A stretch of 64,000 bases of DNA from a virus: IMG/VR virus record IMGVR_UViG_3300044452_000161; one strand, written 5' to 3'. The notes beneath the pieces are model-generated. The model was not told the DNA's origin, searched no databases, and was given only the letters and a program-made list of their open reading frames with translations. Position numbers and translations under genes: made by a program. Below are positions 16,570 through 29,315 of this stretch, in pieces (position 1 is the stretch's first letter; the number at the start of each line of letters is the position of its first letter).

Positions 16570-16574
16570 TTATT

Positions 16575-16677: not shown

Positions 16678-16684
16678 TTAATTT

Positions 16685-16760: not shown

Positions 16761-16862
16761 AACACAAGTTCCTGGTACAGAGGTCCTCAAAACTCGGTTT
16801 TCGAAGACCGACAACCCTCTGTTAAAACGCTCGGGTCGAAGGCGGGTAGTGCCCATAACGAA

Positions 16863-17135
16863 TACGACGTAGCTCAATCGAAAGCCAAACGTCAGTATGA
16901 AAGGCCTAGAAAACGGCGAGATAAGGCTCCCAGTAGGCGTGATCGTAACAAATGCAAGGTGTAAGAAACGTTGAGCGGGTTAAACGCCCGACAGACGATC
17001 CCGAACGAACAGGGAGATAAGGCGCTCGGAGTACGAAAGTTCGAGTACTACTGATTGTAGCGAGTCGCGGGTAGAGCACCAGCATTCACATTGCATCAGG
17101 GCTGGAGATGCGGGGTTCGAGGCCCGCCGTCGTTG
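16863..17135 (+). ncRNA. tRNA-like RNA with about 190-nt D-loop insertion and 17-nt anticodon loop
   Basis: ACGACG/CGTCGT acceptor, GCTC/GAGC D stem, CCAGC/GCTGG stem, TTCGA T loop. Confidence 0.6.
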
Positions 17136-17193
17136 CCGATTAGGTTTGCAGTCTGCGCAGACGATTATAGCCGGGTTAACACGGCGAAAGATA

Positions 17194-17260
17194 TGACGTT
17201 CTGGCTTCGTCGGCAGAGGAAGCTGGAGTGGAATCTAAGGTTCGAGTCCTTAGGGCGTCA
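17194..17260 (+). ncRNA. tRNA-like element lacking one arm
   Basis: TGACGTT/GGCGTCA acceptor, CTAAGG-TTCGAGT-CCTTAG T arm, single internal hairpin. Confidence 0.5.
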
Positions 17261-17273
17261 GGCAAACCTATAT

Positions 17274-17349
17274 CAGGGTGTAGCTCAGTTGGTAGAGTGC
17301 CGCACTTGGAATGCGGAGGTCGTCGGATCGTGACCGACCACCCTGACCA
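17274..17349 (+). tRNA. tRNA-Pro(TGG)
   Basis: cloverleaf, loop CT-TGG-AA, CCA. Confidence 0.92.
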
Positions 17350-17706
17350 AACTCAAACGATGTCGTCCGAAACCGTTCCTAGAACCGTTCGGAGGGCTAT
17401 CGACTGCGCGGTGGCATCCCTGCAGGTAGTACCTGTGAACGTCGCAGTATAAAATGGGTCGCCACACTAACAGAAAACTCGCTTACTCCGGAGTATTACC
17501 TCCCGAGGCGCATAGGTAAGACGCAGTATAGCGGGGGTTTGGTTGGAGTTTGTAGCTGGGGAGCAGACTAGCCTCAGCATCCAAGTTTCGGAGAGACTGC
17601 GCCGAGAGGGGCCGCGCCATAGTTTACTCCAAGTAGTTCACATTCAGCGCCGAAGTATGTCCCCCTGTGTGATTGAAAAGGCTTCTGATCAAACCATTCA
17701 CCCTTT

Positions 17707-17782
17707 TGCGGGATGGAGAAGTAGTCATCTCGCTTGGTTCATGTCCAAGAGATCGTCGGTGCAAATCCGGCTCCCGCAACCA
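17707..17782 (+). tRNA. tRNA-Met(CAT), initiator-like body
   Basis: body resembles bacterial fMet tRNA but T1-A72 is paired and the anticodon stem lacks three G-C pairs. Confidence 0.8.
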
Positions 17783-17930
17783 TTCTGAAATAGCCTGCCC
17801 TCTCCTTCACACCCTCCCGGCAGGTGAACCTCCGGTGCCCAAACCGCAGTCCTCGCGGGCGTCCGAAAGGGCAGACGTTGGTGTCACGTTTTACCTGGCA
17901 CCAAGAGTAGGCTCGGAGGAAAAAATCTAT

Positions 17931-18033
17931 ACTGGCGTAGCTCAGAGGTAGAGCGCTGAGACGTAAACACTCTCGGAGACGCAGAGACACGGGCAGCACA
18001 CCGTGTTGGGTTCAAATCCCGCCGCCAGTTCCA
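17931..18033 (+). ncRNA. aberrant tRNA-like RNA (9-nt anticodon loop, extra arm)
   Basis: perfect acceptor ACTGGCG/CGCCAGT plus TCCA, canonical D arm, TTCAAAT T loop. Confidence 0.65.
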
Positions 18034-18051
18034 ACCCCGAAAATGTAACCC

Positions 18052-18603
18052 TTGGAGGATTATTTTATGTTAGCTGGTATCTTTGCCTTGGGTTTCTGGC
18101 CCTTGGCGTTCTTTGTTCTGTGTATTGCAGGCCTTTTCTGGGGCACAATCGCAGAGTCAGCCGTTGGACTAGCCATCGTCATTGCGATTGCTGTAGCGGC
18201 AGCAACTTTTTCTGGATACGACCCCCTTGGGTATCTTTTCCAGTCCCCGTCTCTATTCTTTTCGGGAGTGGTTCTTTACCTCCTGCTGGGCCTTGGATGG
18301 GCTGGTTGGAAATGGCGACGCTACTTGAAAAAGCCTGAGATTTTCAAACAGATTTCTCAAGCCAAACAGGACTTTTTCGACCAGTCTCCGTCACTGAGTA
18401 TTGATGACTTCATGGACAGTGAACTTTACCCAGACGTAGCTTGGCTTTCGAACAACAAAGATCGGATCATTAGCTGGTGGATGATGTGGCCACTGTCTGC
18501 ATTCTGGTATGTCCTCGGCGACATGCTCGTCGAAGCCTTCAACTGGCTGTACGGCAAGACAGCAGGCTTGTTCCGAAGCATCAGCCGATCAACGATTTCA
18601 TAG
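18052..18603 (+). CDS. membrane protein
   Basis: 183 aa with multiple hydrophobic segments; GGAGG RBS suggests ATG at 18067. Confidence 0.8.
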   Translation: MEDYFMLAGIFALGFWPLAFFVLCIAGLFWGTIAESAVGLAIVIAIAVAAATFSGYDPLGYLFQSPSLFFSGVVLYLLLGLGWAGWKWRRYLKKPEIFKQISQAKQDFFDQSPSLSIDDFMDSELYPDVAWLSNNKDRIISWWMMWPLSAFWYVLGDMLVEAFNWLYGKTAGLFRSISRSTIS

Positions 18604-18749
18604 ATTTTTTGCCGGAGCACGGCGCATCAACTGACGCGCATTCCTTCTCGGATGTAAGTCGCGTCAACTTTTCAGATATACGTCAAAGCGTATATTCATC
18701 AGTTATACGCTTCAGCGTATGGAGCTTTATGATCCGTAACACATAATCG

Positions 18750-19253
18750 ATGTTTATGTGTTATCGACCATAAAACTATGGAATTCCCTTCGGGGAATGG
18801 GCTGTATGAGGTCCTTAGAATATGACCGGGTGACCGGAGAAAAGGGAAAGGCGCTCCCCGCGTCCCCGCCTGAAAAGGTTCAATCATACAAACTCCGATC
18901 CACTTCGCCGGTAGCAGTGCCCCGTAGCGTTGTGTGTCCAGCCCCAACTGGGCAATAGTCGGTAAGTTTGGGAACCCGGTCCGAAAGGATAAGTGAAGCC
19001 TCAAAAGGGCGGATCGAAGTAGATTGGCGTCTACACCCTGTTCATGCCAGCCAAACGAACGATGAGGATTAAGGAGTAGATCGAACACAGTCCAACTGTT
19101 CGCGCAGAAGGGCGAGAGATCATCATGAACGAGGAAGGGCCGACAAGGCCCCCATCCGTGAAATGACGTCGACTAGGCCGCAAGCCGAAAGACATAGATA
19201 CGTGTTGTATTCTTGGTCTAACAAGACTGGGAGCAACCGAGCCAGCACGTGTC
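18750..19253 (+). ncRNA. large structured ncRNA candidate (ROOL/GOLLD-class hypothesis)
   Basis: about 500 nt without credible plus-strand ORF, many hairpins, inside tRNA cluster. Confidence 0.5.
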
Positions 19254-19265
19254 AGGGGTTAAACT

Positions 19266-19340
19266 ACGTTAGTAGCTCATTTGGATAGAGCAACAGTCTG
19301 ATAAAACTGTGGGTAGTGGGTTCAATTCCCATCTTACGTC
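19266..19340 (+). tRNA. tRNA-Ile(GAT)-like with 8-nt anticodon loop (atypical or pseudo)
   Basis: ACAGT-CTGATAAA-ACTGT arm; acceptor with one T-T mismatch; no encoded CCA. Confidence 0.6.
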
Positions 19341-19344
19341 AAAA

Positions 19345-19811
19345 AGCAAAAGACTGGCTCGGTGTCGCGTGAAAGGTGATTAATGCCCGGCTCTTCGGAG
19401 AACTGGGTGGGTTGGAGGCCGCAAGCCAAAGACCTTTGTTCAAGATCAATTCGTAGATCGTTAGCGCGGTCGAACTGCTCGCAAGGCAGACGTGGAGAGA
19501 CAGGACGATTATCGCGACATGACAGGACTACAGCCTTGGTCCTCAAAAACGGCATCACTGAGTGGTACATTGGCACCCTTGACGGGGCCAACGTGGATAT
19601 CTCCTAACCAAGCCTGTAGCAGGGTCCTTGGATACGGGTAGGTAAAGCTATCTCATGGCGACGGTGTAATCTCAGCCGCTGCTACCCATAATCAGCTTTT
19701 TCTGGGGTGACCGGACGCAGGCTTTAGGCTCGTAACCGGGTCTGCGGTCCTATTCTCTCACAGGGCGAACCGGGCGGAGTGAGAGCCGCCCCCACTTATC
19801 CGGCCCCACCA
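19345..19811 (+). ncRNA. second large structured ncRNA candidate ending in CCCCACCA
   Basis: TGTCGCG/CGCGACA enclosing multiple hairpins; GGGG-(TGA)-CCGG pairs with terminal CCGGCCCC. Confidence 0.45.
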
Positions 19812-19849
19812 AAAGAAGCTGTTCAATGAAAGAGTTAAGGAGTGGAGAT

Positions 19850-20089
19850 ATGAAGGTACGACTTACTGTAACGGTCGATATAGAAGACCCAAATTACTAC
19901 CCTTTGGACGAAAATGGATGGGCCTGCGGCGATCCTATCGACAAATTGGATCGAGACGAGGTTGGACAGTATGTATCCGAAGCTATCCTGACTTGGGGTG
20001 GATCAGGACCTCCCCATGGTGTCTTCAATCCTTCGAACATCAACTCCGTCCGTGTACAAGGTACCAACTTCGACACAACGTATCAGTGA
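19850..20089 (+). CDS. hypothetical protein
   Basis: GGAG RBS before MKVRL. Confidence 0.7.
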   Translation: MKVRLTVTVDIEDPNYYPLDENGWACGDPIDKLDRDEVGQYVSEAILTWGGSGPPHGVFNPSNINSVRVQGTNFDTTYQ

Positions 20090-20100
20090 GGAAATCATCT

Positions 20101-20334
20101 ATGATCGACATCAAGCGCGCCGTCACAGGCGGCAGAAAAGTGGTTTTCTCTCATTATGCTGATGGAGACCTTTGGTATAAAACTGAGTTTGGTGAACAGT
20201 TTCCAGTACCGGTCAGCGATGCGGGAACAGCAACTTTTCACGCCAAAGACAAAGCACTCTTGTTCATGCGCTATATGCGTAAGTGGAACGAAAACACTAC
20301 GGCACAAACGATGGAACGTTTGGCCTGTGTCTGA
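20101..20334 (+). CDS. conserved-type phage hypothetical protein
   Basis: MIDIK start, GAGG RBS; LWYKTEFGEQFPVPV..G.ATF...DKA..FMRYMRK motif. Confidence 0.75.
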   Translation: MIDIKRAVTGGRKVVFSHYADGDLWYKTEFGEQFPVPVSDAGTATFHAKDKALLFMRYMRKWNENTTAQTMERLACV

Positions 20335-20344
20335 TCCCTTCGGG

Positions 20345-20416
20345 GATAAAACGCACGTATATCTACGGAGCTTGGATGATTTCTGGACCCGGGGGCGGTA
20401 CCCGGCGGCTCCACCA
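20345..20416 (+). ncRNA. ssrA: tmRNA acceptor piece (permuted two-piece gene); 5' end approximate
   Basis: T arm with GGCGGTA loop then CGGCTCC-A-CCA; pairs with GGGGCCG at 20511 giving G3-U70. Confidence 0.85.
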
Positions 20417-20510
20417 CGTGCACACTGTTCTCAAAACTGCCTTGGAAAGACACGCGAGACGATGCATGCCTCTCGTTTGTTCGCGGAAAAATCTACAGTG
20501 TGTACTTGAT

Positions 20511-20720
20511 GGGGCCGATATAGGATCGACAGGGTTTGAAGGGAAAGTGGCGTGTCGGTGAGAAACCACCGTTATCGGTTCAAAAACCATAGTTGCAAAT
20601 GTAAACGCAGCACCATCGGAGATGGCACTTGCAGCCTAACGCTTGTCGTTACGCTGCCTGAAAGCTTCCCTCCATTGGGCTTCCCGGCGTGCCTAGAAAC
20701 AGAAACGTCGGACCAGTTTC
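20511..20720 (+). ncRNA. ssrA: tmRNA coding piece; tag (A)ANVNAAPSEMALAA* at 20595-20639; 3' end approximate
   Basis: GGGGCCGATATAGGATCGAC 5' end; ATAGTTGCA resume context; LAA terminus. Confidence 0.88.
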
Positions 20721-21052
20721 TCTAGAGGGTTGAGTTCCCCACACAATATGAGTGGTGCATCATCTTCGGTATCGCCGAAACCGCGTTTGACGCAGGTAAC
20801 CGCATACCCAGTTGAACGACAAGAATATTGGAAACCCAACTCGCCGCCGGGCGTGTGACTTAGCGGGTTACAAATAGGTATCACACACCTTTTCGAACGA
20901 GAAGCGGTGGTGGCCCCGTTGGTAGGGCCATCCTTGACTTGCCGCCTCGTCTCTCCGGCTCCGTGAGAGAACTTAGTGAACGGGCCGCGCACGTAGTATA
21001 ACTCCGAAACCGTCCGCAGCGAAATGTGGAGCCGGAGCCGTTACCGGCAGAT

Positions 21053-21262
21053 TTACTTCTTACCCTTACGGCCTTTGGAACTTGGCAGTTTGGAAAGAGG
21101 ACGCTTCTTGAGGCCGATGGCTACACGAAGTTCGTTCACATAGTTCTCGGCTTTTTCGAGTTCTTGCATCGCAAGAGCTTTCTTCTTGTCGGCGATTGCC
21201 TGGGTCAGTTCGTCCAGTTCGCCGATGTCGAGAGAGGAAATGTCGATTGATTTGTTAGCCAT
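21053..21262 (-). CDS. truncated H-NS-like protein (oligomerisation domain plus basic tail)
   Basis: IDISSLDIGELDELTQAIADKKK...ELEKAE pattern of H-NS/HvrA N-termini; no DNA-binding C domain. Confidence 0.6.
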   Translation of the reverse strand: MANKSIDISSLDIGELDELTQAIADKKKALAMQELEKAENYVNELRVAIGLKKRPLSKLPSSKGRKGKK

Positions 21263-21316
21263 GAGTTTCATCCAGTTTCTTGAGACTGGATTGCGATAGC
21301 AGGAAAGGTCTCCGAC

Positions 21317-22324
21317 ATGAATACCCAAATCTACCGGACAACCGCTGGTTCTTTCTTGTTTGGTGCATCAACGCCTTCGTCAGATCGCGATTACAAGTCG
21401 GTTCATCTGCCAGATGCGCGTTCAATCCTGTTGGGAACAGCGAACAAAGTGAGTGATAAGAGCACTGGAGGTAAGGATCGGAAGAACTCAGCCGATGATG
21501 TTGATGAGACGTCTTTTCCGCTTCAAAAGTACCTCAAAAATCTTGCGAGTATGGAAACCAATGCCATCGAAATTTTGTTTTCATATCGTCTAGAAGATTT
21601 TCCCGATGATGGAACGTTCGGATGGTATATTTGGAACGAAATCTATCAAAATCGGATGAGAATTCTCAACAGCAACAAGCAGAGCTTTCTTGGATACGCC
21701 AAGGCGCAGGCCATGAGGTACAGCGTTCGAGGAGAACGTCTGAAAGCGCTGAAAGCAATAATTGAATTCCTGAAGTCCCAGGATGCTTCAGCCCGGATCA
21801 GAGACCTCAATCTCAGCCCTGTGTTGTGGGAATTTGAAGGAATTCGAGTGCATGATCGGCAAATTCGCGATCAAAACGGCAGTTTTTACGCGATGCCGCA
21901 CATTTGTGTTCACGGGAGGCAAACACCGATCACTTCTACTGTGTCAGAAGCGCTGAAAGTCTACGAAAAGCCTTTGAAGAACGCGAGCCATCGAGCCGAA
22001 GCGGCTGTAGAGGATGGAGCGGACTGGAAAGGCATGTATCATGCTCAACGGATCGTACACGAAGGCATAGAGTTGTTTTCGACAGGTAACCTTGTCTTTC
22101 CTTGCCGACACGCTCCGTATTACCTTGATATTCGAAACGGTGTTATTTCTCTTGATGAGGTTTTGAACCGTTTTGACGAGTCTTTACTTGAACTCGAAGG
22201 AATAGACCCAGCGAAACACTTTCGAAGCCACGCCGATCACAAGTGGATCGATGAGTTTGTTTATGCTGCGCATGAACAGCAGGTCGTTTCTGCATACGAA
22301 AGTAACATTATTCAAGAACAATAG
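21317..22324 (+). CDS. Pol-beta superfamily nucleotidyltransferase (RlaP-like)
   Basis: GSFLFGASTPSSDRDYK catalytic motif; helical C-terminus WKGMYHAQRI. Confidence 0.8.
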   Translation: MNTQIYRTTAGSFLFGASTPSSDRDYKSVHLPDARSILLGTANKVSDKSTGGKDRKNSADDVDETSFPLQKYLKNLASMETNAIEILFSYRLEDFPDDGTFGWYIWNEIYQNRMRILNSNKQSFLGYAKAQAMRYSVRGERLKALKAIIEFLKSQDASARIRDLNLSPVLWEFEGIRVHDRQIRDQNGSFYAMPHICVHGRQTPITSTVSEALKVYEKPLKNASHRAEAAVEDGADWKGMYHAQRIVHEGIELFSTGNLVFPCRHAPYYLDIRNGVISLDEVLNRFDESLLELEGIDPAKHFRSHADHKWIDEFVYAAHEQQVVSAYESNIIQEQ

Positions 22325-22504
22325 GCCTTTGGCACGCGGTTAGAAGGATGTGCCATCCGACGGGGAAGTACCAACGCCGACTGAGTTGCATCTACAGTTC
22401 GCGGTCCGTGAGACCCTAGGAGTGAGCCGGGCATTAGGAGGGGCCATCCACGCGGTCCCGCACCCGGTAGGCGTGGGTACGGCGGTGCTGCAACACCGTC
22501 CTAT

Positions 22505-22593
22505 GGGTAGGTTCAGCCGCTGGTCGCGGCATGCGGGTTGTAACCCCGTTCCGTGTAATGCGGGCGCAGTTCGATTCTAGCACCTACCCACCA
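22505..22593 (+). tRNA. tRNA-Tyr(GTA), non-canonical 8/4-like fold
   Basis: loop TT-GTA-AC, long variable arm, 8-bp acceptor, 4-bp bulged T stem, A-CCA. Confidence 0.75.
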
Positions 22594-22601
22594 GTTTTCA
22601 C

Positions 22602-22677
22602 GTGCAGGTAGCTCAGTTGGTAGAGCGCGGGATTGAAGTTTCTGGCGTCGGGGGTTCGAGTCCCTCTCTGCACACCA
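22602..22677 (+). tRNA. tRNA-Phe(GAA)
   Basis: cloverleaf, CCA. Confidence 0.9.
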
Positions 22678-22832
22678 ATTCGCAAAGGGCATCAGGAGAG
22701 CGTTTGCCGCAAGCACATAGCTCTTCTTTCGGCGGCGGTGTCAGCGGCGACACCGTAACTCACGAGGCCTGTGAAGGCCGCTCCGAACCCCTGGGCTAAG
22801 GAAGCGCCGCTAGTGAGATTTAACAAGGAGGT

Positions 22833-23471
22833 GTGATGTCCAAACGTTCTGACTTTATTCGTATCGAGAAGGACAAGTACATGACCCCGGCTGAGGGTGC
22901 CACACCTCTTATTCGCTTTTTGCCAACCGGCATCTTCCACTACGTTGAGCCGTGTGCTGCGCAAGGTGGGCTTGTTGCACATTTTCTCCATCAATCTGGT
23001 GGGCGTTCTCGCTGCACCCACATGTCAGATATTGAACCAGAGATCGCTTCTATCAAGCGAATGGATGCCAGAAACCTTGGTCCTGAGCACCTCTTTGATG
23101 CGGACTTGATAATTACGAACCCGCCTTGGGATCGATCTAAGAAGTCCGGGTATCTGCTGCACGAATTGATCGAGGTATTTTCTAACCTGCGGCCTACCTG
23201 GTTGTTGTTTGACAGTGACTGGGTCCAGACAGTCCAAGCGGGTCCTTACATGTCGAGATTGGTGGCAACCGTGTCTGTTGGACGCCTGAAGTGGATGCCT
23301 GGAACCAAACATACCGGAAAAGACAATTGCCAGTGGCACCTGTTCGCGAAGAACGCACGAGAGATCACTGATGCACCAGAGCACTTCGGTCGAAATGTGG
23401 GTCCATATCCTCACTTTGTTAGTCGATACATGCGATTGGCATACCGTGAGAGGGTGACAGAAGCAGCATAA
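22833..23471 (+). CDS. DNA N6-adenine methyltransferase-like protein
   Basis: DKYMTP, EPCAAQG (motif I-like), IITNPPW (motif IV). Confidence 0.8.
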   Translation: MMSKRSDFIRIEKDKYMTPAEGATPLIRFLPTGIFHYVEPCAAQGGLVAHFLHQSGGRSRCTHMSDIEPEIASIKRMDARNLGPEHLFDADLIITNPPWDRSKKSGYLLHELIEVFSNLRPTWLLFDSDWVQTVQAGPYMSRLVATVSVGRLKWMPGTKHTGKDNCQWHLFAKNAREITDAPEHFGRNVGPYPHFVSRYMRLAYRERVTEAA

Positions 23472-23474
23472 TTT

Positions 23475-23550
23475 ACCCGGGTAGCTCAGTGGTAGAGCGG
23501 CGTCCTTACACGTCGTGACAGCGGTGGTTCGATCCCACCTCCGGGTACCA
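23475..23550 (+). tRNA. tRNA-Val(TAC)
   Basis: cloverleaf with one anticodon-stem mismatch, CCA. Confidence 0.88.
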
Positions 23551-23557
23551 AACAGAT

Positions 23558-23633
23558 GGGGCCTTAGCTCAGCGGTAGCAGCGCTTGCTCGACACGCAAG
23601 AGGTCACTGGTTCGATCCCAGTAGGCCCCACCA
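23558..23633 (+). tRNA. tRNA-Val(GAC)
   Basis: cloverleaf, CCA. Confidence 0.9.
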
Positions 23634-23669
23634 AACAATCTAGAAAACCTAGTTTTCTCCAAGTTTCTT

Positions 23670-23743
23670 GGGGGACGTCTATGGGTAGCGGCTGATCCTT
23701 GCAAGATTGGCGTCACGGGGTTCGATTCCCCGGTCTTCCACCA
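23670..23743 (+). tRNA. tRNA-Ala(TGC) with reduced D arm
   Basis: loop CT-TGC-AA, G3-U70, A73-CCA. Confidence 0.75.
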
Positions 23744-23750
23744 TCATCAT

Positions 23751-23826
23751 TCGGGTGTAGCTCAGTTGGTAGAGCAAACGGCTGTTAACCGTTGTGTCGG
23801 GGGTTCGAAACCCTCCTCCCGAGCCA
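23751..23826 (+). tRNA. tRNA-Asn(GTT)
   Basis: cloverleaf, G73-CCA. Confidence 0.92.
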
Positions 23827-23844
23827 ATTCAAAAGGAGTGCCTC

Positions 23845-23964
23845 ATGGTAACGTTTCTTATCGGTGTCGCTGTCGGCACTTTCATCCCAACCCCTTACCA
23901 AGCTGCGATCCACGCAGTTGTGAAGAAGGCGTGGACCTGGTTTACGTCTTTGACGAAATCTTGA
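23845..23964 (+). CDS. 39 aa membrane peptide (not in ORF track)
   Basis: MVTFLIGVAVGTFIPTPYQAAIHAVVKKAWTWFTSLTKS; AAGGAG RBS. Confidence 0.65.
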   Translation: MVTFLIGVAVGTFIPTPYQAAIHAVVKKAWTWFTSLTKS

Positions 23965-24163
23965 CTAACGGCCTGTAGAGGCCTATCAACATGGCATTCG
24001 CATGTGTAGTACCCCTACAAGTGCGTTTCGGTGGCGTTTTCGTGAGAGGTGTGCGCCTGAAAAACCTCTCACATTATTTTTGCCTTGTGATGTAAGTAAT
24101 ATTGACACACTTTGGGTGTTCATGTATTGTTTTACTAACAAATGAGGCCTGGCGTCACATAAA

Positions 24164-24502
24164 ATGTCAAAGAAAGAAACCGCTTTCTGTCCGACGTGTG
24201 GAAGACCAAATCCCATACGGCACTCTCCTGAATGGCTTATAGCTAGCTTTCGCGGGGTCATGGCTAAGATTCTGGCGTGCTTGATACAGTGTCGCAGAGA
24301 ACATCGGGCAGCGACAAAAGATGAACTCATCTTGTCCGCTTACCCTGACCACGGAGACGAGCCACCTATTGGTGGTGGCGATGTGGTTATTCAAACAATC
24401 CAACAAGCTCGCAAAAGGCTTCAGAAGATGGGTTGGGACGTTGTTGGGCCTAAGACGACAGGACATGGATACATGCTTGTATCCCTGGAACGAAACCTTT
24501 GA
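24164..24502 (+). CDS. zinc-knuckle plus winged-helix-like putative regulator
   Basis: CPTC; TKDELILSAY...IQQARKRL..GW....GHGY resembles OmpR-type wHTH. Confidence 0.6.
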   Translation: MSKKETAFCPTCGRPNPIRHSPEWLIASFRGVMAKILACLIQCRREHRAATKDELILSAYPDHGDEPPIGGGDVVIQTIQQARKRLQKMGWDVVGPKTTGHGYMLVSLERNL

Positions 24503-24503
24503 T

Positions 24504-24578
24504 GGACCGGTAGCTCAGCGGTAGAGCGGGGGACTCTTAATCCCTGTGTCGTGGGTTCAACCCCCACCCGGTTCTCCA
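24504..24578 (+). tRNA. tRNA-Lys(CTT)
   Basis: cloverleaf, CCA. Confidence 0.9.
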
Positions 24579-24598
24579 CAGTAAGAAACGGGACTCCG

Positions 24599-24895
24599 AT
24601 GCTTGTACCTATTATCGCATTTTGTGCCATTATTGATGGTGATGTTACGCAATATTGCACAACCATCGAGGACACCAAAAACACCTACCAAGTGGTGAAA
24701 GAATGCGAAAAGCGTGCAACGGAAGTCAAAGATTCTCGTCTCATCCAGTTCCAAGCCATTGAAAATATTCGGAGACAGATTGGACCGGTGTGGGACAACA
24801 AGATGTCCTTCGATCTTTTCTGCATAGATGAAAAGAATGTCAGTGACTTTTTGCTGAAGAAATACGGAATTTTAGCCGACGATGTGGCTATATAG
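24599..24895 (+). CDS. hypothetical protein
   Basis: start moved to MLVPII (the track start lies inside the tRNA). Confidence 0.65.
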   Translation: MLVPIIAFCAIIDGDVTQYCTTIEDTKNTYQVVKECEKRATEVKDSRLIQFQAIENIRRQIGPVWDNKMSFDLFCIDEKNVSDFLLKKYGILADDVAI

Positions 24896-24983
24896 TCTGG
24901 TGACGGAACGGTAACGTGTCGGATTGCAAATCCGAAGCCTCTTAAACCTCAGAGTACGGGTTCGAGTCCCGTCCAGACTTCCA
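24894..24983 (+). tRNA. tRNA-Cys(GCA) with long variable arm
   Basis: loop TT-GCA-AA, U73-CCA, 20-nt variable region. Confidence 0.85.
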
Positions 24984-24987
24984 ATAT

Positions 24988-25064
24988 GCTGGTCAAGTGT
25001 TGCAGGTGTACACGTGTGGTTGTGGACCACACATAGAAGGGTTCGAGTCCCTCGGCCAGTTCCA
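24988..25064 (+). tRNA. tRNA-His(GTG), no G-1, U73
   Basis: loop TT-GTG-GA; base before position 1 is T; T-CCA end. Confidence 0.82.
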
Positions 25065-25085
25065 ATGAATTGTAACGACAGGAGT

Positions 25086-25136
25086 ATGTCTATGCCCAGG
25101 AAAGGCAAAGGCTACGGCAAAGGTAAGAAGAAATAG
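25086..25136 (+). CDS. 16 aa basic micropeptide MSMPRKGKGYGKGKKK
   Basis: AGGAG RBS; fills gap between two tRNAs. Confidence 0.45.
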   Translation: MSMPRKGKGYGKGKKK

Positions 25137-25211
25137 GCCCTACGCGCGTCTGGTGATGCGACCCGGCTGTCTACCGGGTGAGGGTGGGTTCGATTCCCCC
25201 TAGGGTCGCCA
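25136..25211 (+). tRNA. tRNA-Asp(GTC)
   Basis: CCCGG-CTGTCTA-CCGGG, G73-CCA. Confidence 0.85.
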
Positions 25212-25230
25212 CAAAACGCGGAGGGAGGCC

Positions 25231-25581
25231 ATGATTGTTCTGATCACTGGTGATCGAGACTACCGAAATCAACGTGAAATGTGGGCCGTTCTTGATCGTG
25301 TCCATGCACAGCAACCGTTTAGCTACTTAGTTCACGGTGATCAAAGTGGCGCTGATCAAATGTCCCATCGATGGGCCAAGAAACGGGGCGTTCCGCCTGT
25401 GGCAATGGAAGCACTGCGGGACGTTGAAGGACCAGATGCTGGACCAATTCGAAACGGCAGAATGTTAGAGTTCGCAAAGCCTTATCTGGTTATTGCTTTC
25501 AGCGGAGGTCGAGGGACCAACAATATGATTAAACAGGCGGTAGACAAGGGTATCCCTGTAATCGACGTGGAGGACTTATGA
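25231..25581 (+). CDS. SLOG-family (DUF2493-like) protein
   Basis: LITGDRDY, VHGDQSGAD, GPIRNGRML, AFSGGRGTNNMI motifs. Confidence 0.85.
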   Translation: MIVLITGDRDYRNQREMWAVLDRVHAQQPFSYLVHGDQSGADQMSHRWAKKRGVPPVAMEALRDVEGPDAGPIRNGRMLEFAKPYLVIAFSGGRGTNNMIKQAVDKGIPVIDVEDL

Positions 25582-26021
25582 CCTTTGGATTTACGCAGTT
25601 TAGTGTGGCGGTGACGTTGGGAACAGTTTTGGGTTTTGGATACCTCCAAGGACAAAGCACATTCCCTGCCGCAAAGCCTTATGAGAATGCTGCCGTAAAA
25701 TCCTTTGAACAGACAGATAGTGGGTACGACTTTGTAGCCAGTTTTCGTCAAACAACATGCGAACTCGTTCGCCTGGGTGTAAGGGGAGATGATTTCGGTA
25801 TTTGGAAAGAAATCAAATTCTCGCACAACGATGACGAAGAAGATCGCGTAAAGGGCTGGGAAATCATCGACATATCTCTTGACGTTCCAGAACACGATTA
25901 TGACGTCATTGAAATCCGCATGAGACATCTCTGCGACGATGCATTTGTAGACAGCGTTCTTGCGGCGTGGGACGTCAGCAACGAACAAATAACATCCTTG
26001 GGCCAGCGGAACTGGTGGTGA
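25578..26021 (+). CDS. hypothetical protein with N-terminal membrane anchor
   Basis: 147 aa; 3' end overlaps tRNA-Arg-like gene. Confidence 0.7.
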   Translation: MTFGFTQFSVAVTLGTVLGFGYLQGQSTFPAAKPYENAAVKSFEQTDSGYDFVASFRQTTCELVRLGVRGDDFGIWKEIKFSHNDDEEDRVKGWEIIDISLDVPEHDYDVIEIRMRHLCDDAFVDSVLAAWDVSNEQITSLGQRNWW

Positions 26022-26068
26022 GCTTGCGAAGCTCGCTTACGAAGGTTCGACTCCTTCCCTGAGGGCCA
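25996..26068 (+). tRNA. tRNA-Arg(GCG), atypical D arm
   Basis: TGAGC-TTGCGAA-GCTCG arm, GAAGG-TTCGACT-CCTTC T arm, G-CCA. Confidence 0.65.
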
Positions 26069-26078
26069 CCATTAATAT

Positions 26079-26154
26079 GCGGGCTTAGCTCAATCGGTAG
26101 AGCGCCACCTTGCCAAGGTGGAGGTAGCGGGATCGTAACCCGCAGTCCGCTCCA
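26079..26154 (+). tRNA. tRNA-Gly(GCC)
   Basis: cloverleaf, U73-CCA. Confidence 0.92.
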
Positions 26155-26163
26155 ACTATCTGT

Positions 26164-26237
26164 TGGGATGTAGCCAAGTGGTAAGGCAAGAGGCTTTGGT
26201 CCTCTGATCGGCGGTTCGAATCCTCCCATCCCAACCA
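26164..26237 (+). tRNA. tRNA-Gln(TTG)
   Basis: cloverleaf, T1-A72, CCA. Confidence 0.9.
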
Positions 26238-26244
26238 ACCTTTC

Positions 26245-26318
26245 GCGGGCGTAGCTCAGTGGTAGAGCATCGGGTTTCCACCCCGTGTGCGTGAGTTCGA
26301 TCCTCATCGTCCGCTCCA
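26245..26318 (+). tRNA. tRNA-Gly(TCC)
   Basis: cloverleaf, U73-CCA. Confidence 0.9.
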
Positions 26319-26459
26319 ACAAAATAAGTCGACTTAGTCGACTTCGAGTTCCTCCTTGAGCCAAGGCACGATTGGCTATGACGGGATGGATAGGTAGCCC
26401 CTCAGGCTCGGGTAGGACCGTAACATCCTCGCGTGGTTCCACGGTAAGAGCCACATTTT

Positions 26460-26535
26460 TGTGGCGTAGCTCAGTTGGTAGAGCGCCGAGCCGATAACTC
26501 GGAGGTCGTGGGATCGTGACCCACCGCCACAACCA
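26460..26535 (+). tRNA. tRNA-Ile(GAT)
   Basis: cloverleaf, CCA. Confidence 0.92.
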
Positions 26536-26543
26536 GGTTTTTT

Positions 26544-26630
26544 GCGGATGTGGCGGAATTGGCAGACGCGCTAGGCTTAGGTCCTAGTGTCCCTCGTGAC
26601 GTGGAGGTTCGACCCCTCTCATCCGTACCA
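26544..26630 (+). tRNA. tRNA-Leu(TAG)
   Basis: type II cloverleaf, A73-CCA. Confidence 0.92.
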
Positions 26631-26637
26631 TTATTTT

Positions 26638-26714
26638 GCGGTCGTGGCGAAATGGTAAACGCAGCAGGCTTAAACCCTGTACATCTGCGGGTTCGACCCC
26701 CGCCGACCGTACCA
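26638..26714 (+). tRNA. tRNA-Leu(TAA) with short variable region
   Basis: Leu-type D arm, loop CT-TAA-AC, 6-nt variable loop. Confidence 0.85.
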
Positions 26715-26715
26715 T

Positions 26716-26790
26716 GGTCCTGTAGCTCAGTGGTAGAGCGGGGCGCTCATAACGCTTTGGTCGCAGGTTCGATCCCTGCCGGGACCACCA
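26716..26790 (+). tRNA. tRNA-Ile2(CAT)-like
   Basis: body resembles bacterial lysidine-modified Ile2 tRNA; loop CT-CAT-AA. Confidence 0.8.
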
Positions 26791-26797
26791 AGGAAAT

Positions 26798-26873
26798 GCT
26801 GTCATAGCTCAGTTGGTAGAGCAGCGAACTTGTAATTCGAAGGCCCGGGGTTCGATCCCTCGTGACAGCACCA
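26798..26873 (+). tRNA. tRNA-Thr(TGT)
   Basis: cloverleaf, CCA. Confidence 0.9.
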
Positions 26874-26879
26874 AAACAT

Positions 26880-26965
26880 GTGGGAGTGGCGAAATGGTAG
26901 ACGCGCCAGGTTCAAATTCTGGTGTCCTTAGCGGCGTGCGGGTTCGATCCCCGCTTCCCATACCA
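26880..26965 (+). tRNA. tRNA-Leu(CAA)
   Basis: type II cloverleaf, CCA. Confidence 0.92.
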
Positions 26966-26971
26966 ATCAAT

Positions 26972-27058
26972 GGAAAGTGAACTCAGCGGGTGCTGGGGAC
27001 TGGTTGCTAACCAGATCGGACTTTAGGGTCTGGGGATCGAGACCTCCTCTTTCCGCCA
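26972..27058 (+). tRNA. tRNA-Ser(GCT)
   Basis: type II cloverleaf, G73-CCA. Confidence 0.9.
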
Positions 27059-27059
27059 T

Positions 27060-27146
27060 GGACAGTAAACTGGGGAGGTCCCCGGGACCGCCTTGAAAGC
27101 GGAGCGCACATTCGTGTGTGGGGTTCGAGTCCTCTGCTGTCTGCCA
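27060..27146 (+). tRNA. tRNA-Ser(TGA)
   Basis: type II cloverleaf, G73-CCA. Confidence 0.9.
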
Positions 27147-27152
27147 AATCTT

Positions 27153-27229
27153 GGACCGGTAGCTCAGTTGGTCAGAGCGGTTGACTTTTAATCTTCGCGT
27201 CGGGGGTTCAAATCCCTCCCGGTTCACCA
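27153..27229 (+). tRNA. tRNA-Lys(TTT)
   Basis: loop CT-TTT-AA; two T-T mismatches in anticodon stem; CCA. Confidence 0.85.
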
Positions 27230-27556
27230 ACCTGTTTCGTTCTTCTCTAAACAGAACTCACCGATGTATTTTCGAAATGAATCCGTTAGTTCTTTTTTCT
27301 CGGAATCTACGAATAGAACGGGTTGATTGTAAGCTACGTGGACGACAGTGCGAAGAATAGTTTCTCTAAGGTCGTCTCCACCAGATTGGATGGACACCGA
27401 CTTCATAACATCTTCTTTGGGATGCATTGACTGACGTGTTACCATGATCTGTTCAGCAACATTGACGAGATCGGCACAGTTAATCTGCACTTCGTCAGCG
27501 TAGACGGGAAACCCAAAAAGAACTCCCGATATGGATGCGATAACCGTGTTTCTCAC
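27224..27556 (-). CDS. putative secreted hypothetical protein
   Basis: GTG start 27556 with GGAG RBS; signal-peptide-like VIASISGVLFGFPVYA; antisense to tRNA cluster. Confidence 0.65.
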   Translation of the reverse strand: MRNTVIASISGVLFGFPVYADEVQINCADLVNVAEQIMVTRQSMHPKEDVMKSVSIQSGGDDLRETILRTVVHVAYNQPVLFVDSEKKELTDSFRKYIGEFCLEKNETGW

Positions 27557-27631
27557 CGTTTCTTCTCCCTTTTGATATATGGTTACATATCTAACCATCA
27601 TTTTGATACATTCAAATATATCAGCGAATAC

Positions 27632-27707
27632 GCTTCCGTAGCTCAGTGGACAGAGCGCCGGTCTTCTACACCGGGCGTCGTGGGTTCGAATCCTACCGGG
27701 AGTACCA
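27632..27707 (+). tRNA. tRNA-Arg(TCT)
   Basis: cloverleaf, CCA. Confidence 0.92.
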
Positions 27708-27714
27708 TTTTCAT

Positions 27715-27789
27715 ATGAGTGTAGCTCAGGGGTAGAGCAGCGGTCTCCAAAACCGCGTGTCGGGGGTTCGAATCCCTCCACTCATGCCA
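27715..27789 (+). tRNA. tRNA-Trp(CCA)
   Basis: cloverleaf, G73-CCA. Confidence 0.92.
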
Positions 27790-27851
27790 ATTGGGTACCT
27801 TCTGAGTTGTAGAAGGCTAAGCCGCCCGGCTGAAAGCGGGCAGGGCCTTTT

Positions 27852-27928
27852 GCTGTCGTAGCTCAGGTGGTTAGAGCGCGTTCTTGGTATGGACGAGGTC
27901 ATTGGTTCGAAACCAGTCGACAGCACCA
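27852..27928 (+). tRNA. tRNA-Thr(GGT)
   Basis: cloverleaf, CCA. Confidence 0.9.
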
Positions 27929-28026
27929 AGTTATCCACAGTAATGTTCGCTCTATGTTCTTGTCGAATCGTTCCAGAAATGGCATGTAAGAATTGCTAGC
28001 GTCGAGCCGCTCGGCTCCGCGACACA

Positions 28027-28218
28027 ATGCGTAAACGGTATGACATTGAGGGCGACCTTTCATTGGTTACAGCCCGCCTGCACGAGCTAGCGATATGCGG
28101 CATCGATGCAGGGAATTTGAATGATATTCGCCGCCTTACTGAGGCGGTGAATACGCTTGTAAGAGAAGCGGACATGTATGCTCCGCAAATCATTAATTTT
28201 CCTGCCGATGGAAGGTGA
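28027..28218 (+). CDS. hypothetical protein
   Basis: 63 aa. Confidence 0.55.
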   Translation: MRKRYDIEGDLSLVTARLHELAICGIDAGNLNDIRRLTEAVNTLVREADMYAPQIINFPADGR

Positions 28219-28296
28219 ACTCAGTAGGTACTGAGGCTCGCTTCGAAAGCGATGCGGACTTTCGAGTCTGGGGATCGAGACCTCCGCCTTCTGCCA
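28210..28296 (+). tRNA. tRNA-Ser(CGA)
   Basis: type II cloverleaf, G73-CCA. Confidence 0.88.
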
Positions 28297-28319
28297 TACC
28301 GACACCGAAGGAGTTCAAC

Positions 28320-28709
28320 ATGAGTGAACCAACTCTCTACATTTTGATGCGCACTGATCTCGAATCTATGAATCCAGGTAAGGGGATGGCGCAAGCAGCC
28401 CACGCAGCAAATCAATTCGTTCACGAGTATTCCAAGCTTTCAGAATTTGGTGACTGGGCAAAACAAGCAGAGGGTTTTGGGACAACCATCGTACTAGGTG
28501 GAGGTAATGAAGAAGATATTGCGAGAGTGGCCTCAGACTGCGCTTACCGAGAAGGTTTTGTGGCTGGACTGGTTCGCGATCCAACTTATCCGGTCAAAGA
28601 CGGGGAGGCCGTTCACCTAATCAGTCTGGTGACATGTGCATACGTTTTCACGCCATGCCGGATCACAAACCCAGTCCACGAACTTCAGGACTTGTGCCTA
28701 CATCATTGA
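28320..28709 (+). CDS. pth2: peptidyl-tRNA hydrolase type 2
   Basis: LYILMRTDLESMNPGKGMAQAAHAA, GTTIVL, VRDPTY motifs; AAGGAG RBS at true start 28320. Confidence 0.85.
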   Translation: MSEPTLYILMRTDLESMNPGKGMAQAAHAANQFVHEYSKLSEFGDWAKQAEGFGTTIVLGGGNEEDIARVASDCAYREGFVAGLVRDPTYPVKDGEAVHLISLVTCAYVFTPCRITNPVHELQDLCLHH

Positions 28710-28722
28710 AAGGAGTTTTGTG

Positions 28723-29214
28723 ATGTTGCGAGAAAAGAAAGTACAAGAAATCAAAGAGTACCTGACATCGGTCTCGATGGAGTCCAAGGTGTATATCGGG
28801 TGCGATAGCTCGCGTCATCGCAACAAGCAGGATGAATGGTTCGCGTCTTATACAACGGCGGTCGTTGTGCATATCAACAACTCGAACGGTTGTCGTGTGT
28901 TCTGTGATACCGAAGTTTTGAGAGACTATGACCAAAGAGAGGATCGACCAGCCCTCCGAATGATGAACGAAGCCTATAAAGCTGTTGAAGCATACGAGCA
29001 GCTTGAGGAAGAACTCATCGACCGAGATGTTGAAGTACACTTGGACATCAACGCGGACCCTAAGCACGGATCAAACTGCGCTCTAGGGGCTGCCAGAGGC
29101 ATTGTACTCGGCTCTACGGGACGACCTGTAAGGGTTAAGCCTGATGCTTTCGCAGCTTCGTACGCTGCAGACCATGGCGTTAGACAAGGCTTCAACCGCC
29201 GTAGAGCGGCTTAA
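28723..29214 (+). CDS. RNase H-like (YkuK-type) protein
   Basis: VYIGCDS, TAVVVH, RMMNEA, EVHLDIN, KPDAFAASYAAD motifs; AGGAG RBS. Confidence 0.85.
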   Translation: MLREKKVQEIKEYLTSVSMESKVYIGCDSSRHRNKQDEWFASYTTAVVVHINNSNGCRVFCDTEVLRDYDQREDRPALRMMNEAYKAVEAYEQLEEELIDRDVEVHLDINADPKHGSNCALGAARGIVLGSTGRPVRVKPDAFAASYAADHGVRQGFNRRRAA

Positions 29215-29228
29215 GGCCAACAAAAAAT

Positions 29229-29315
29229 GGACGGTGAACTGATCAGGTGATCAGCATCGCTTGGAAAGCGATTGGGGCCAACGAGCCTGGGGATCGAGAC
29301 CTCCGCCCTCCGCCA
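29229..29315 (+). tRNA. tRNA-Ser(GGA)
   Basis: type II cloverleaf, G73-CCA. Confidence 0.9.

What the first reader, a model, noticed from the sequence alone, without database searches (positions are those of the whole stretch)
20345..29214. Ribosome-rescue and tRNA-recycling module: tmRNA, Pth2, RNase-H-like, SLOG and nucleotidyltransferase
Seen: all are co-oriented inside the tRNA array. Established: tmRNA frees stalled ribosomes and Pth recycles peptidyl-tRNA; YkuK-type and SLOG proteins lack defined roles but are linked to nucleic acid or nucleotide processing. Inference: a coordinated answer to translation-targeting abortive infection, implying a tRNA-related role for the YkuK-type nuclease.
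Basis: partly seen in the sequence, partly recalled or inferred. Interest (0 to 1): 0.6.

Follow-up and report, generated by a model that had tools for sequence, protein, structure and literature searches.

The report
Phage tRNA island with YkuK nuclease
A marine roseobacter phage carries a tmRNA and four accessory genes inside its 30-odd-tRNA cluster; only one of them, an uncharacterised RNase H-like nuclease (YkuK/DUF458), sits beside tRNA genes in many unrelated phages, giving this orphan enzyme family a testable tRNA-linked role.

Summary
All five named parts are real and co-oriented inside the tRNA array of a DSS3P8/RpAliso-like roseophage. They are a permuted tmRNA, an RlaP-type nucleotidyltransferase, a YAcAr SLOG protein, a divergent Pth2 and a YkuK/PF04308 nuclease. 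Two gene starts needed correcting. Four unusual tRNA-Ser genes missed by ARAGORN and Rfam extend the array and bracket the Pth2-YkuK pair.

The five-part "module" is synteny of one phage family, not a general co-occurring set. Outside that family, 63% of 90 YkuK loci lie within 100 nt of a tRNA, against 2.5% for Pth2 and 2.7% for the NTase. SLOG homologues sit mostly in small phages. Pth2-YkuK adjacency holds across the roseophage family and some more divergent uncultured contigs.

So the inferred tRNA-related role for YkuK is well supported by context, including one operon with CCA-adding enzyme, Thg1-like protein, Rnl1-type RNA ligase (annotated RNA ligase A) and Pnk. A single coordinated anti-abortive-infection machine is not supported. 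The ribosome-rescue and RNA-repair reading of tmRNA, Pth2 and RlaP is already published for mycobacteriophage arrays and jumbo phages. I found no paper on the YkuK-tRNA link.

The parts
16493..29315 (+). tRNA array: 27 ARAGORN tRNAs plus 4 uncalled tRNA-Ser, all co-oriented, upstream of the portal gene (31580-33247)
20101..20334 (+). 77-aa gene (phrog_20427, function unknown) ending at the tmRNA start. Homologues sit between or beside Pth2 and YkuK in other contigs.
20324..20730 (+). Permuted two-piece tmRNA. The acceptor piece ends CCACCA at 20416 and the coding piece starts GGGGCCG at 20511. G3:U70 is present. Tag ANVNAAPSEMALAA.
21317..22324 (+). RlaP-type Pol-beta nucleotidyltransferase (invariant G11 S12, D23 x D25)
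22833..23471 (+). Amino-methyltransferase-like protein with an NPPW motif; DNA or RNA target unresolved. Conserved in all roseophage-type arrays.
24164..24502 (+). Conserved 112-aa ORF of unknown function, syntenic in relatives
25231..25581 (+). YAcAr-family SLOG protein
25578..26021 (+). 147-aa ORF overlapping the SLOG stop; no family assigned
26972..27058 (+). tRNA-Ser(GCT): 8-bp acceptor, 6-bp D stem with 4-nt loop, long variable arm, 4-bp T stem, encoded CCA
27060..27146 (+). tRNA-Ser(TGA), same unusual shape
28027..28218 (+). 63-aa conserved small ORF upstream of Pth2
28210..28296 (+). tRNA-Ser(CGA), ending 23 nt before the Pth2 start
28320..28709 (+). Divergent Pth2-like peptidyl-tRNA hydrolase (129 aa). 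Invariant K21 and D87 align with what I recall as the catalytic Lys18 and Asp86 of 1xty.
28723..29214 (+). YkuK/DUF458 RNase H-like nuclease (163 aa). D28, E83 and D108 are invariant; D150 is present in at least 90% of 82 sequences.
29229..29315 (+). tRNA-Ser(GGA), starting 14 nt after the YkuK stop. The same arrangement occurs in L003.

Best explanation
This is the tRNA/tmRNA island of a new DSS3P8/RpAliso-like roseobacter siphophage. I read its protein genes as separate add-ons that share a transcriptional neighbourhood, not as one machine.

(1) The permuted tmRNA, working with host SmpB, and the Pth2-like hydrolase plausibly relieve stalled ribosomes and recycle peptidyl-tRNA during infection. 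This follows from family knowledge and is not shown here.

(2) The RlaP-type NTase plausibly adds lost 3' nucleotides to damaged RNA, together with Rnl1- and Rnl2-type ligases that the relative RpAliso encodes tens of kb away.

(3) The SLOG protein has no specific tie to translation.

(4) The YkuK-like protein is a metal-dependent RNase H-fold nuclease whose gene is specifically wedded to tRNA genes across many phage lineages. I infer that it acts on phage tRNA or tmRNA transcripts. My odds are about 35% for cutting polycistronic pre-tRNA or trimming ends during maturation, and about 25% for trimming damaged tRNA ends ahead of repair.

The Pth2-YkuK bicistron, bracketed within 14-23 nt by tRNA-Ser genes, would be released as its own mRNA by tRNA processing. 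That step is inference.
For: Identity and synteny: RpAliso has the same order: an unannotated permuted tmRNA, NTase, methyltransferase-like gene, SLOG, Pth2, YkuK, portal. All six cultured relatives have Pth2 immediately followed by YkuK.

YkuK and tRNA:
- It lies inside the arrays of Stenotrophomonas DLP_6, Xanthomonas BUDD and Synechococcus BUCT-ZZ01. In BUCT-ZZ01 it comes right after a tmRNA and a tRNA-Leu.
- It lies 5-6 kb from the arrays of KVP40 and phiKT1024.
- Fisher combined p is 0.005 under a uniform null.
- In IMG/VR, 57 of 90 loci outside the roseophage type have a tRNA within 100 nt and 86 of 90 have a tRNA in the locus, with tRNAs almost all co-oriented. Pth2 gives 2 of 80 and the NTase 2 of 75 within 100 nt.
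- 17 of 18 clusters at 70% identity have tRNAs in the flanks.
- 12 of 27 loci with 3 or fewer tRNAs still have one within 100 nt.
- In RHph_I1_18, YkuK precedes CCA-NTase, Thg1-like, RNA ligase A and Pnk.

Enzyme: D28, E83, H106 and D108 are invariant, and D150 is present in at least 90% of 82 diverse sequences. The AF2 model has pLDDT 94.5 and an RNase H-like fold.

Stability: YkuK is 73% identical to RpAliso's copy, like the major capsid protein (73%) and above the portal protein (65%). It is present in every listed KVP40-like record.

The host class probably lacks the family: PF04308 is not found in Caulobacter or E. coli, only in B. subtilis and T. maritima among 14 control genomes.

Pth2: profile matches to solved Pth2 structures, with Lys and Asp conserved. 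RlaP: 30 of 32 homologues carry PF10127, and its biochemistry is described in PMC12776372. RNA ligases are present in RpAliso and three other YkuK phages.
Against: - No biochemical or expression data exist for any part.
- Fold matches are generic (Argonaute PIWI, PhoExo I, EndoV, NurA and RNase H1 all at Z 7-8) and do not say whether the target is RNA or DNA.
- tRNA arrays are accessory-gene hot spots. 22% of other same-strand ORFs in the same loci also lie within 100 nt of a tRNA. Under a stricter null, the cultured-lineage test loses significance (p 0.16).
- Loci are not phylogenetically independent, so locus-count p-values are inflated.
- One YkuK cluster (L037/L038) has no tRNA nearby.
- The Pth2 match is far below NCBIfam's equivalog cut-off (28 against 126 bits).
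- The RlaP Pfam score is borderline (24 against 23), and no ligase is adjacent.
Confidence: 0.6

Rival explanations
1. One reading: tmRNA, Pth2, YkuK, SLOG and NTase form one coordinated counter-defence module against translation-targeting abortive infection (anticodon nucleases, tRNA-acetylating toxins).
For: - The whole arrangement is conserved across the roseophage family down to 36-60% protein identity.
- Pth2 directly followed by YkuK also recurs in more divergent contigs (L151, L153, L155, L159/160, L166), at times with the 77-aa gene that abuts the tmRNA here.
- YkuK sits with tRNA-repair genes in RHph_I1_18.
- RNA ligases are present in relatives.
- tmRNA plus a PTH2-like gene recur in mycobacteriophage cluster C arrays (PMC5966550).
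- The concept is published for jumbo phages (PMC7824862).
Against: - Of 35 fully flanked YkuK loci, only 9 have Pth2, 7 SLOG, 3 the NTase and 4 a tmRNA.
- Of 44 fully flanked Pth2 loci, only 10 have YkuK and 14 have any tRNA.
- NTase homologues (1540 phage records) and SLOG homologues (818 records) mostly sit in unrelated contexts.
- The RNA ligases lie tens of kb away, and there is no SmpB.
- Co-orientation is trivial in a region where everything is on one strand.
Confidence: 0.2
2. YkuK-like is a DNA-level nuclease (homing-type or recombination-promoting) that lives in tRNA arrays and drives their shuffling, like T4 SegB or the HNH genes of mycobacteriophage arrays.
For: - Nucleases known inside phage tRNA clusters are homing endonucleases (own knowledge for T4 SegB; HNH genes in PMC5966550).
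- The tRNA species flanking YkuK differ between lineages.
- A compact tRNA-Leu(UAA)-YkuK-tRNA-Met(CAU) cassette recurs in contigs with few tRNAs.
- The RNase H fold includes RuvC, transposases and integrases.
Against: - The gene is present at a fixed position in all six cultured roseophages and in all listed KVP40-like records, with no presence/absence polymorphism seen.
- It is as conserved as the capsid protein.
- It is a single 150-165-aa domain with no DNA-binding module.
- To my knowledge no known homing endonuclease family has this fold.
- Cellular homologues exist in Bacillus and Thermotoga.
Confidence: 0.12
3. YkuK-like attacks host RNA (host tRNAs or their precursors), and the phage's own near-complete tRNA set replaces what is destroyed.
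For: - YkuK phages examined whole carry 21-37 Rfam tRNA matches.
- 96% of YkuK loci hold tRNAs.
- The host class probably lacks the family.
Against: - There is no direct evidence.
- Many YkuK loci hold only 1-3 tRNAs within 20 kb.
- Nothing in the sequence suggests discrimination between host and phage tRNAs.
Confidence: 0.08

Closest known systems
DSS3P8-like roseophages (Roseobacter phage DSS3P8, Ruegeria phages vB_RpoS-V10 and RpAliso, DSS3_MAL1, Phaeobacter phage MD18, Rhodobacter phage RcXuper)
   Same: The gene order is the same: tmRNA, NTase, methyltransferase-like gene, SLOG, Pth2, YkuK, portal, inside the tRNA array. Protein identities to RpAliso run from 44% (NTase) to 73% (YkuK, major capsid protein).
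   Different: Only tRNAs match at the DNA level. tRNA content and order differ. This phage adds the 77-aa gene next to the tmRNA. The tmRNA is not annotated in RpAliso, and the MD18 paper reads the tRNAs only as codon adaptation (PMC7643831).
Mycobacteriophage cluster C tRNA arrays (Bxz1-like; the related Myrna) with tmRNA and a PTH2-like gene
   Same: A tmRNA and a Pth2-type hydrolase lie inside a large phage tRNA array and are read as extra ribosome-rescue factors (PMC5966550). Myrna gp84 is a weak Pth2 match.
   Different: The host phylum differs. That tmRNA is of the standard one-piece type, to my knowledge. No YkuK, RlaP or SLOG is reported in those arrays.
Jumbo-phage RNA-repair and ribosome-rescue gene sets (Iyer et al. 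2021, PMC7824862)
   Same: RlaP NTase with RNA ligases, CCA-adding enzyme, Thg1, PTH2 and YAcAr SLOG are all described there as phage counter-measures in RNA and NAD conflicts.
   Different: This is a phage of roughly 150 kb (by its relatives), not a jumbo phage. The genes are embedded in the tRNA array. My DUF458/YkuK literature search did not return that paper.
Bacillus subtilis YkuK / DUF458 (PF04308), RNase H1-like clade E (PMC3985635)
   Same: Same Pfam family, single-domain architecture and RNase H1-like acidic active-site residues.
   Different: The cellular protein is uncharacterised. The phage branch is tied to tRNA genes. I could not examine the cellular gene context.
Phage T4 tRNA region and Pnk-Rnl1 tRNA repair against PrrC
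   Same: A phage tRNA cluster with interspersed protein genes, and phage repair of cleaved tRNA. RHph_I1_18 places YkuK next to RNA ligase A and Pnk.
   Different: To my knowledge T4's cluster holds a GIY-YIG homing endonuclease (SegB), not an RNase H-like protein. T4's repair genes are not in the tRNA cluster.

Membership tests
Permuted (two-piece) tmRNA | Covariance-model match above the curated cut-off | tested here: met
   RF04321 scores 124.6 bits (cut-off 47) and RF01849 scores 117.2 bits (cut-off 50). ARAGORN calls a permuted tmRNA.
Permuted (two-piece) tmRNA | Alanine-type acceptor stem with G3:U70 and CCA, plus a tag reading frame ending in a hydrophobic AA-type degron and a stop | tested here: met
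   Read from the sequence. GGGGCCG (20511) pairs with CGGCTCC followed by ACCA (ending at 20416), which gives G3:U. The tag is ANVNAAPSEMALAA followed by TAA.
Permuted (two-piece) tmRNA | SmpB partner | tested here: not met
   PF01668 finds nothing in RpAliso, BUCT-ZZ01 or two complete IMG/VR relatives. The phage must borrow host SmpB. The window's own full genome was not available.
Pth2 (PF01981) | Profile match above the Pfam gathering score | tested here: met
   33.5 bits against 23. A profile of phage homologues hits solved Pth2 structures: 1xty at 2e-7, then 1rlk, 2zv3 and 1q7s.
Pth2 (PF01981) | Equivalog-level similarity to archaeal/eukaryal Pth2 | tested here: not met
   NCBIfam NF003314 scores 28 bits against a cut-off of 126. 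This is a divergent phage branch with its own DPTYPxxDG..H C-terminal half.
Pth2 (PF01981) | Catalytic Lys and Asp | tested here: met
   Invariant K21 and D87 align with K18 and D86 of 1xty. The catalytic role of those residues is from my own knowledge.
YkuK / DUF458 (PF04308) | Profile match above the gathering score, single domain | tested here: met
   57.3 bits against 25, covering 3-142 of 145 profile positions.
YkuK / DUF458 (PF04308) | RNase H-like fold with an acidic active-site tetrad | tested here: met
   The AF2 model has pLDDT 94.5. The best fold matches are all RNase H-like nucleases at Z 7-8. D28, E83 and D108 are invariant and D150 is present in at least 90% of 82 sequences.
YkuK / DUF458 (PF04308) | Nuclease activity and substrate | not testable with these tools
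   The papers I found report no biochemistry for any family member.
RlaP NTase (PF10127) | Profile match and Pol-beta NTase motifs (hG[GS], DxD) | tested here: met
   24 bits against 23, which is borderline. 30 of 32 homologues carry PF10127. G11, S12, D23 and D25 are invariant.
RlaP NTase (PF10127) | Genomic association with an RNA ligase | tested here: inconclusive
   RpAliso has PF09511 and PF09414 ligases at about 83 kb and 75 kb, with the NTase at about 6-7 kb. They are present in the genome but not adjacent. The window's own ligases were not seen.
YAcAr SLOG (PF10686) | Profile match above the gathering score | tested here: met
   67.1 bits against 28.2.
Single co-inherited functional module (the five parts) | Co-occurrence or adjacency beyond one phage family | tested here: not met
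   The parts occur together only in roseophage-type contigs. Elsewhere YkuK, Pth2, NTase and SLOG occur apart. Only Pth2-YkuK adjacency extends to some more divergent contigs.

The most novel reading that the evidence does not exclude
The YkuK/DUF458 family is a previously unrecognised tRNA-directed ribonuclease that phages bring with their tRNA genes. In the boldest version it clears host tRNAs (or licenses only phage tRNAs), which would make the phage's own tRNA set necessary.
Probability: 0.1. Interest if true: 0.85.

Novelty: new variant of a known kind. Interest (0 to 1): 0.5.

Why it matters
Phage tRNA arrays are now discussed as counter-defence devices, yet the protein genes woven into them are mostly unannotated. 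Separating array-specific residents from passengers shows which gene to study. YkuK/DUF458 is a conserved family (413 clusters at 50% identity) for which I found no reported function, in Bacillus, Thermotoga or phages. Its tie to tRNA genes makes one experiment obvious: a nuclease assay on pre-tRNA and damaged tRNA. Cultured, genetically tractable systems exist (Ruegeria pomeroyi DSS-3 phages, Vibrio phage KVP40). The result also tempers the idea that co-oriented neighbours in a tRNA array form one machine.

Tried and rejected
- Megablast to the phage collection matched only tRNAs, so there is no close DNA relative.
- No whole genome is held for the window.
- Single-protein IMG/VR scans found only 3 loci each. 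Alignments were needed.
- Sequence searches of YkuK and of the NTase (single sequence and profile) against PDB chains found nothing useful.
- Foldseek and VIA-align gave only generic RNase H-fold matches and no subfamily. EndoV-like or Argonaute-like specificity therefore cannot be claimed.
The cellular YkuK gene context therefore stayed unexamined.
- Promoter and terminator consensus scans were at chance level for promoters and did not define transcription units.
- The 77-aa protein stayed unidentified by Pfam, the ESM Atlas and PHROGs.
- The methyltransferase-like protein could not be assigned to a DNA or an RNA target.
- 97% of tRNAs in YkuK loci encode CCA. Without a matched control this does not separate the hypotheses.
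- An RNase Z-like role for YkuK gets no support from this, since these arrays encode CCA. That is inference only.

Full report
**What is there**

The window is phage DNA. A DUF4055 portal gene (31580-33247) and a GP7-type capsid gene (34753-35790) follow the region. ARAGORN finds 27 tRNAs and a permuted tmRNA between 16493 and 27928, all on the + strand, and Rfam confirms them.

- An RlaP-type NTase at 21317-22324.
- A YAcAr SLOG protein at 25231-25581.
- A Pth2-like protein.
- A PF04308 (YkuK/DUF458) protein.

Reading the sequence moves two starts. Pth2 begins at ATG 28320, behind GAAGGAG. YkuK begins at ATG 28723.

A 90-nt repeat family turned out to be four tRNA-Ser genes with anticodons GCT, TGA, CGA and GGA. 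Each has an 8-bp acceptor stem, a 6-bp D stem with a 4-nt loop, a long variable arm, a 4-bp T stem and an encoded CCA. ARAGORN and Rfam miss them here, but ARAGORN calls their homologues tRNA-Ser in related contigs. Two of them bracket the Pth2-YkuK pair at 23 nt and 14 nt. The pair therefore lies inside the array, which runs to 29315.

**Whose genome**

Only tRNAs match known phages at the DNA level. At the protein level the nearest relatives are the roughly 147-150-kb roseobacter siphophages DSS3P8, V10, DSS3_MAL1, RpAliso, MD18 and RcXuper.

RpAliso has the same order of genes: NTase, methyltransferase-like gene, SLOG, Pth2, YkuK, then portal. It also has an unannotated permuted tmRNA with tag ANENFAPVEMAVAA. 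All six cultured relatives place YkuK directly after Pth2. The five-part arrangement is thus a trait of this phage family.

**Do the parts travel together elsewhere?**

*Cultured phages.* YkuK homologues occur in 78 phage records.
- The gene lies inside the tRNA arrays of Stenotrophomonas DLP_6, Xanthomonas BUDD and Synechococcus BUCT-ZZ01. BUDD's 36 tRNAs are unannotated. In BUCT-ZZ01, YkuK comes directly after an unannotated permuted tmRNA and a tRNA-Leu, and a SLOG gene follows it.
- The gene lies 5-6 kb downstream of the arrays of KVP40 and phiKT1024.
- With whole-record tRNA maps, the chance of being that close is 0.05-0.11 per lineage. The combined p is 0.005. This weakens to 0.16 if only a third of each genome is treated as available to accessory genes.
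- In Rhizobium phage RHph_I1_18, YkuK heads a run of CCA-adding enzyme, Thg1-like enzyme, RNA ligase A and polynucleotide kinase, with two tRNAs downstream.

*IMG/VR.* An alignment-based scan found at least 588 relatives, and 80 loci were fetched. The table counts loci that lack the roseophage marker gene.

| Gene | Loci | tRNA within 100 nt | tRNA within 1 kb | Any tRNA in the locus |
|---|---|---|---|---|
| YkuK | 90 | 57 | 75 | 86 |
| Pth2 | 80 | 2 | 8 | 17 |
| NTase | 75 | 2 | 3 | 21 |

- The tRNAs near YkuK are almost all co-oriented with it.
- The pattern holds over 17 of 18 YkuK clusters at 70% identity.
- It also holds where tRNAs are scarce. Of 27 loci with three or fewer tRNAs, 12 have one within 100 nt, often as tRNA-Leu(UAA)-YkuK-tRNA-Met(CAU).
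- As a within-locus control, 22% of other same-strand ORFs lie within 100 nt of a tRNA.
- Locus counts are not independent events, so I rely on the breadth across clusters rather than on the p-values.

*The other parts.*
- SLOG homologues (818 records) are mostly in about 50-kb mycobacteriophages.
- NTase homologues (1540 records) are mostly in T4-like phages, next to genes annotated thioredoxin.
- Pth2 elsewhere sits near NAD-salvage, Macro, metallophosphoesterase, Thg1-like or RNA-ligase genes rather than tRNAs.
- Among fully flanked loci, 9 of 35 YkuK loci have Pth2, and 10 of 44 Pth2 loci have YkuK.
- Pth2-YkuK adjacency does extend to more divergent uncultured contigs. Three of them have a small gene between the two, and that gene is the homologue of the 77-aa gene that abuts the tmRNA in this window.

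**The proteins**

*YkuK.* D28, E83, H106 and D108 are invariant across 82 diverse sequences, and D150 is present in at least 90% of them. The protein folds with pLDDT 94.5 into an RNase H-like domain. Its best structural matches are Argonaute PIWI, PhoExo I, endonuclease V, NurA and RNase H1. They tie at Z 7-8, so the fold is confirmed but the substrate is not. Majorek et al. place DUF458 in the RNase H1 clade and describe it as uncharacterised. The family is small, at 413 clusters at 50% identity. Among 14 control genomes it appears only in B. subtilis and T. maritima, not in Caulobacter or E. coli. YkuK is as conserved between this phage and RpAliso as the major capsid protein (73%). It is present in every listed KVP40-like genome. 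Both points argue against a sporadic selfish element.

*Pth2.* It is divergent: 28 bits against an NCBIfam equivalog cut-off of 126. It keeps the Lys and Asp that align with K18 and D86 of the Sulfolobus enzyme.

*NTase.* It has the GS and DxD motifs, and nearly all of its homologues carry PF10127. A 2025 preprint shows that RlaP adds one or two nucleotides to damaged RNA 3' ends and restores repaired tRNA.

*Repair and rescue partners.* RpAliso and three other YkuK-bearing phages encode Rnl1-type and PF09414 RNA ligases elsewhere in their genomes. No SmpB was found in the relatives checked, so the tmRNA needs host SmpB.

**Reading**

The island is best seen as a tRNA/tmRNA transcription region that has collected translation-maintenance and other accessory genes. 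tmRNA with Pth2 for rescue and recycling, and RlaP with distant ligases for RNA repair, are plausible from family knowledge. Both ideas are already in the literature: mycobacteriophage cluster C arrays carry a tmRNA and a PTH2-like gene, and jumbo phages carry RlaP, CCA-adding enzyme, Thg1, PTH2 and YAcAr.

What my searches of the open literature and of this scan's notes did not turn up is the specific bond between YkuK and tRNA genes. That agrees with my reading.

I favour an RNA-directed role for YkuK on tRNA or tmRNA transcripts, either in maturation or in end-trimming before repair. The rivals are a DNA-level nuclease that shuffles arrays, and a nuclease directed at host tRNAs. None of these can be settled without a nuclease assay and knockouts.

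**Limits**

- The window's own full genome, the cellular YkuK neighbourhoods and the transcription units could not be examined.
- All functional statements are inference from homology and gene context.

Noticed in passing
window 26972-27058, 27060-27146, 28210-28296, 29229-29315: Four tRNA-Ser genes (GCT, TGA, CGA, GGA) are missed by both ARAGORN and Rfam. Each has an 8-bp acceptor, a 4-bp T stem, a 6-bp D stem with a 4-nt loop and a long variable arm, a shape that recalls tRNA-Sec or allo-tRNAs. They supply a full serine set that the automatic calls lack.
   Followed up: partly
window 20101-20334: A 77-aa gene (phrog_20427) ends where the tmRNA begins. Its homologues sit between or beside Pth2 and YkuK in uncultured contigs (L159/160, L166, L030/120, L142) and just after a tRNA-Arg in jumbo phage GAP32 (L171). 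No family or fold could be assigned.
   Followed up: partly
L025, L027, L039, L094 and partial copies in L024, L026, L042, L056, L085, L050, L066, L082: A mini-cassette tRNA-Leu(UAA)-YkuK-tRNA-Met(CAU), with spacers of 6-50 nt in most copies, recurs in IMG/VR contigs that have only 1-5 tRNAs in up to 20 kb.
   Followed up: partly
L001:475-818 (RpAliso), L012:6053-6471 (Synechococcus phage BUCT-ZZ01), L011 (Xanthomonas phage BUDD): Public records lack RNA annotation. RpAliso and BUCT-ZZ01 each carry an unannotated permuted tmRNA (tags ANENFAPVEMAVAA and ANDETFSMALAA). The fetched stretches of BUDD and BUCT-ZZ01 show no annotated tRNAs, yet ARAGORN finds 36 and 15 there.
   Followed up: yes
L013:97-4900 (Rhizobium phage RHph_I1_18): A run of YkuK-like gene, small ORF, CCA-adding enzyme, DUF1127, Thg1-like enzyme, RNA ligase A and polynucleotide kinase, followed by tRNA-Lys and tRNA-Gln. 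It looks like a compact tRNA-repair operon that includes YkuK.
   Followed up: partly
window 22833-23471: A 212-aa protein with an EPCAAQGG motif-I-like stretch and an IITNPPW motif IV, conserved in every roseophage-type array. It is annotated elsewhere as a DNA methyltransferase, but it has sub-threshold hints to RNA m2G methyltransferase families (PF01170, PF05175).
   Followed up: partly
L008:6463-7899 (KVP40.0300): In KVP40 the gene just upstream of YkuK is a 478-aa protein annotated as RNA-binding. I did not examine it.
   Followed up: no
window 19266-19340 and 17931-18030: ARAGORN calls a tRNA with a four-base anticodon (gata). Rfam gives a weak 100-nt tRNA match (35.6 bits) that ARAGORN does not call. 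Both are odd tRNA-like genes in the front part of the array.
   Followed up: no
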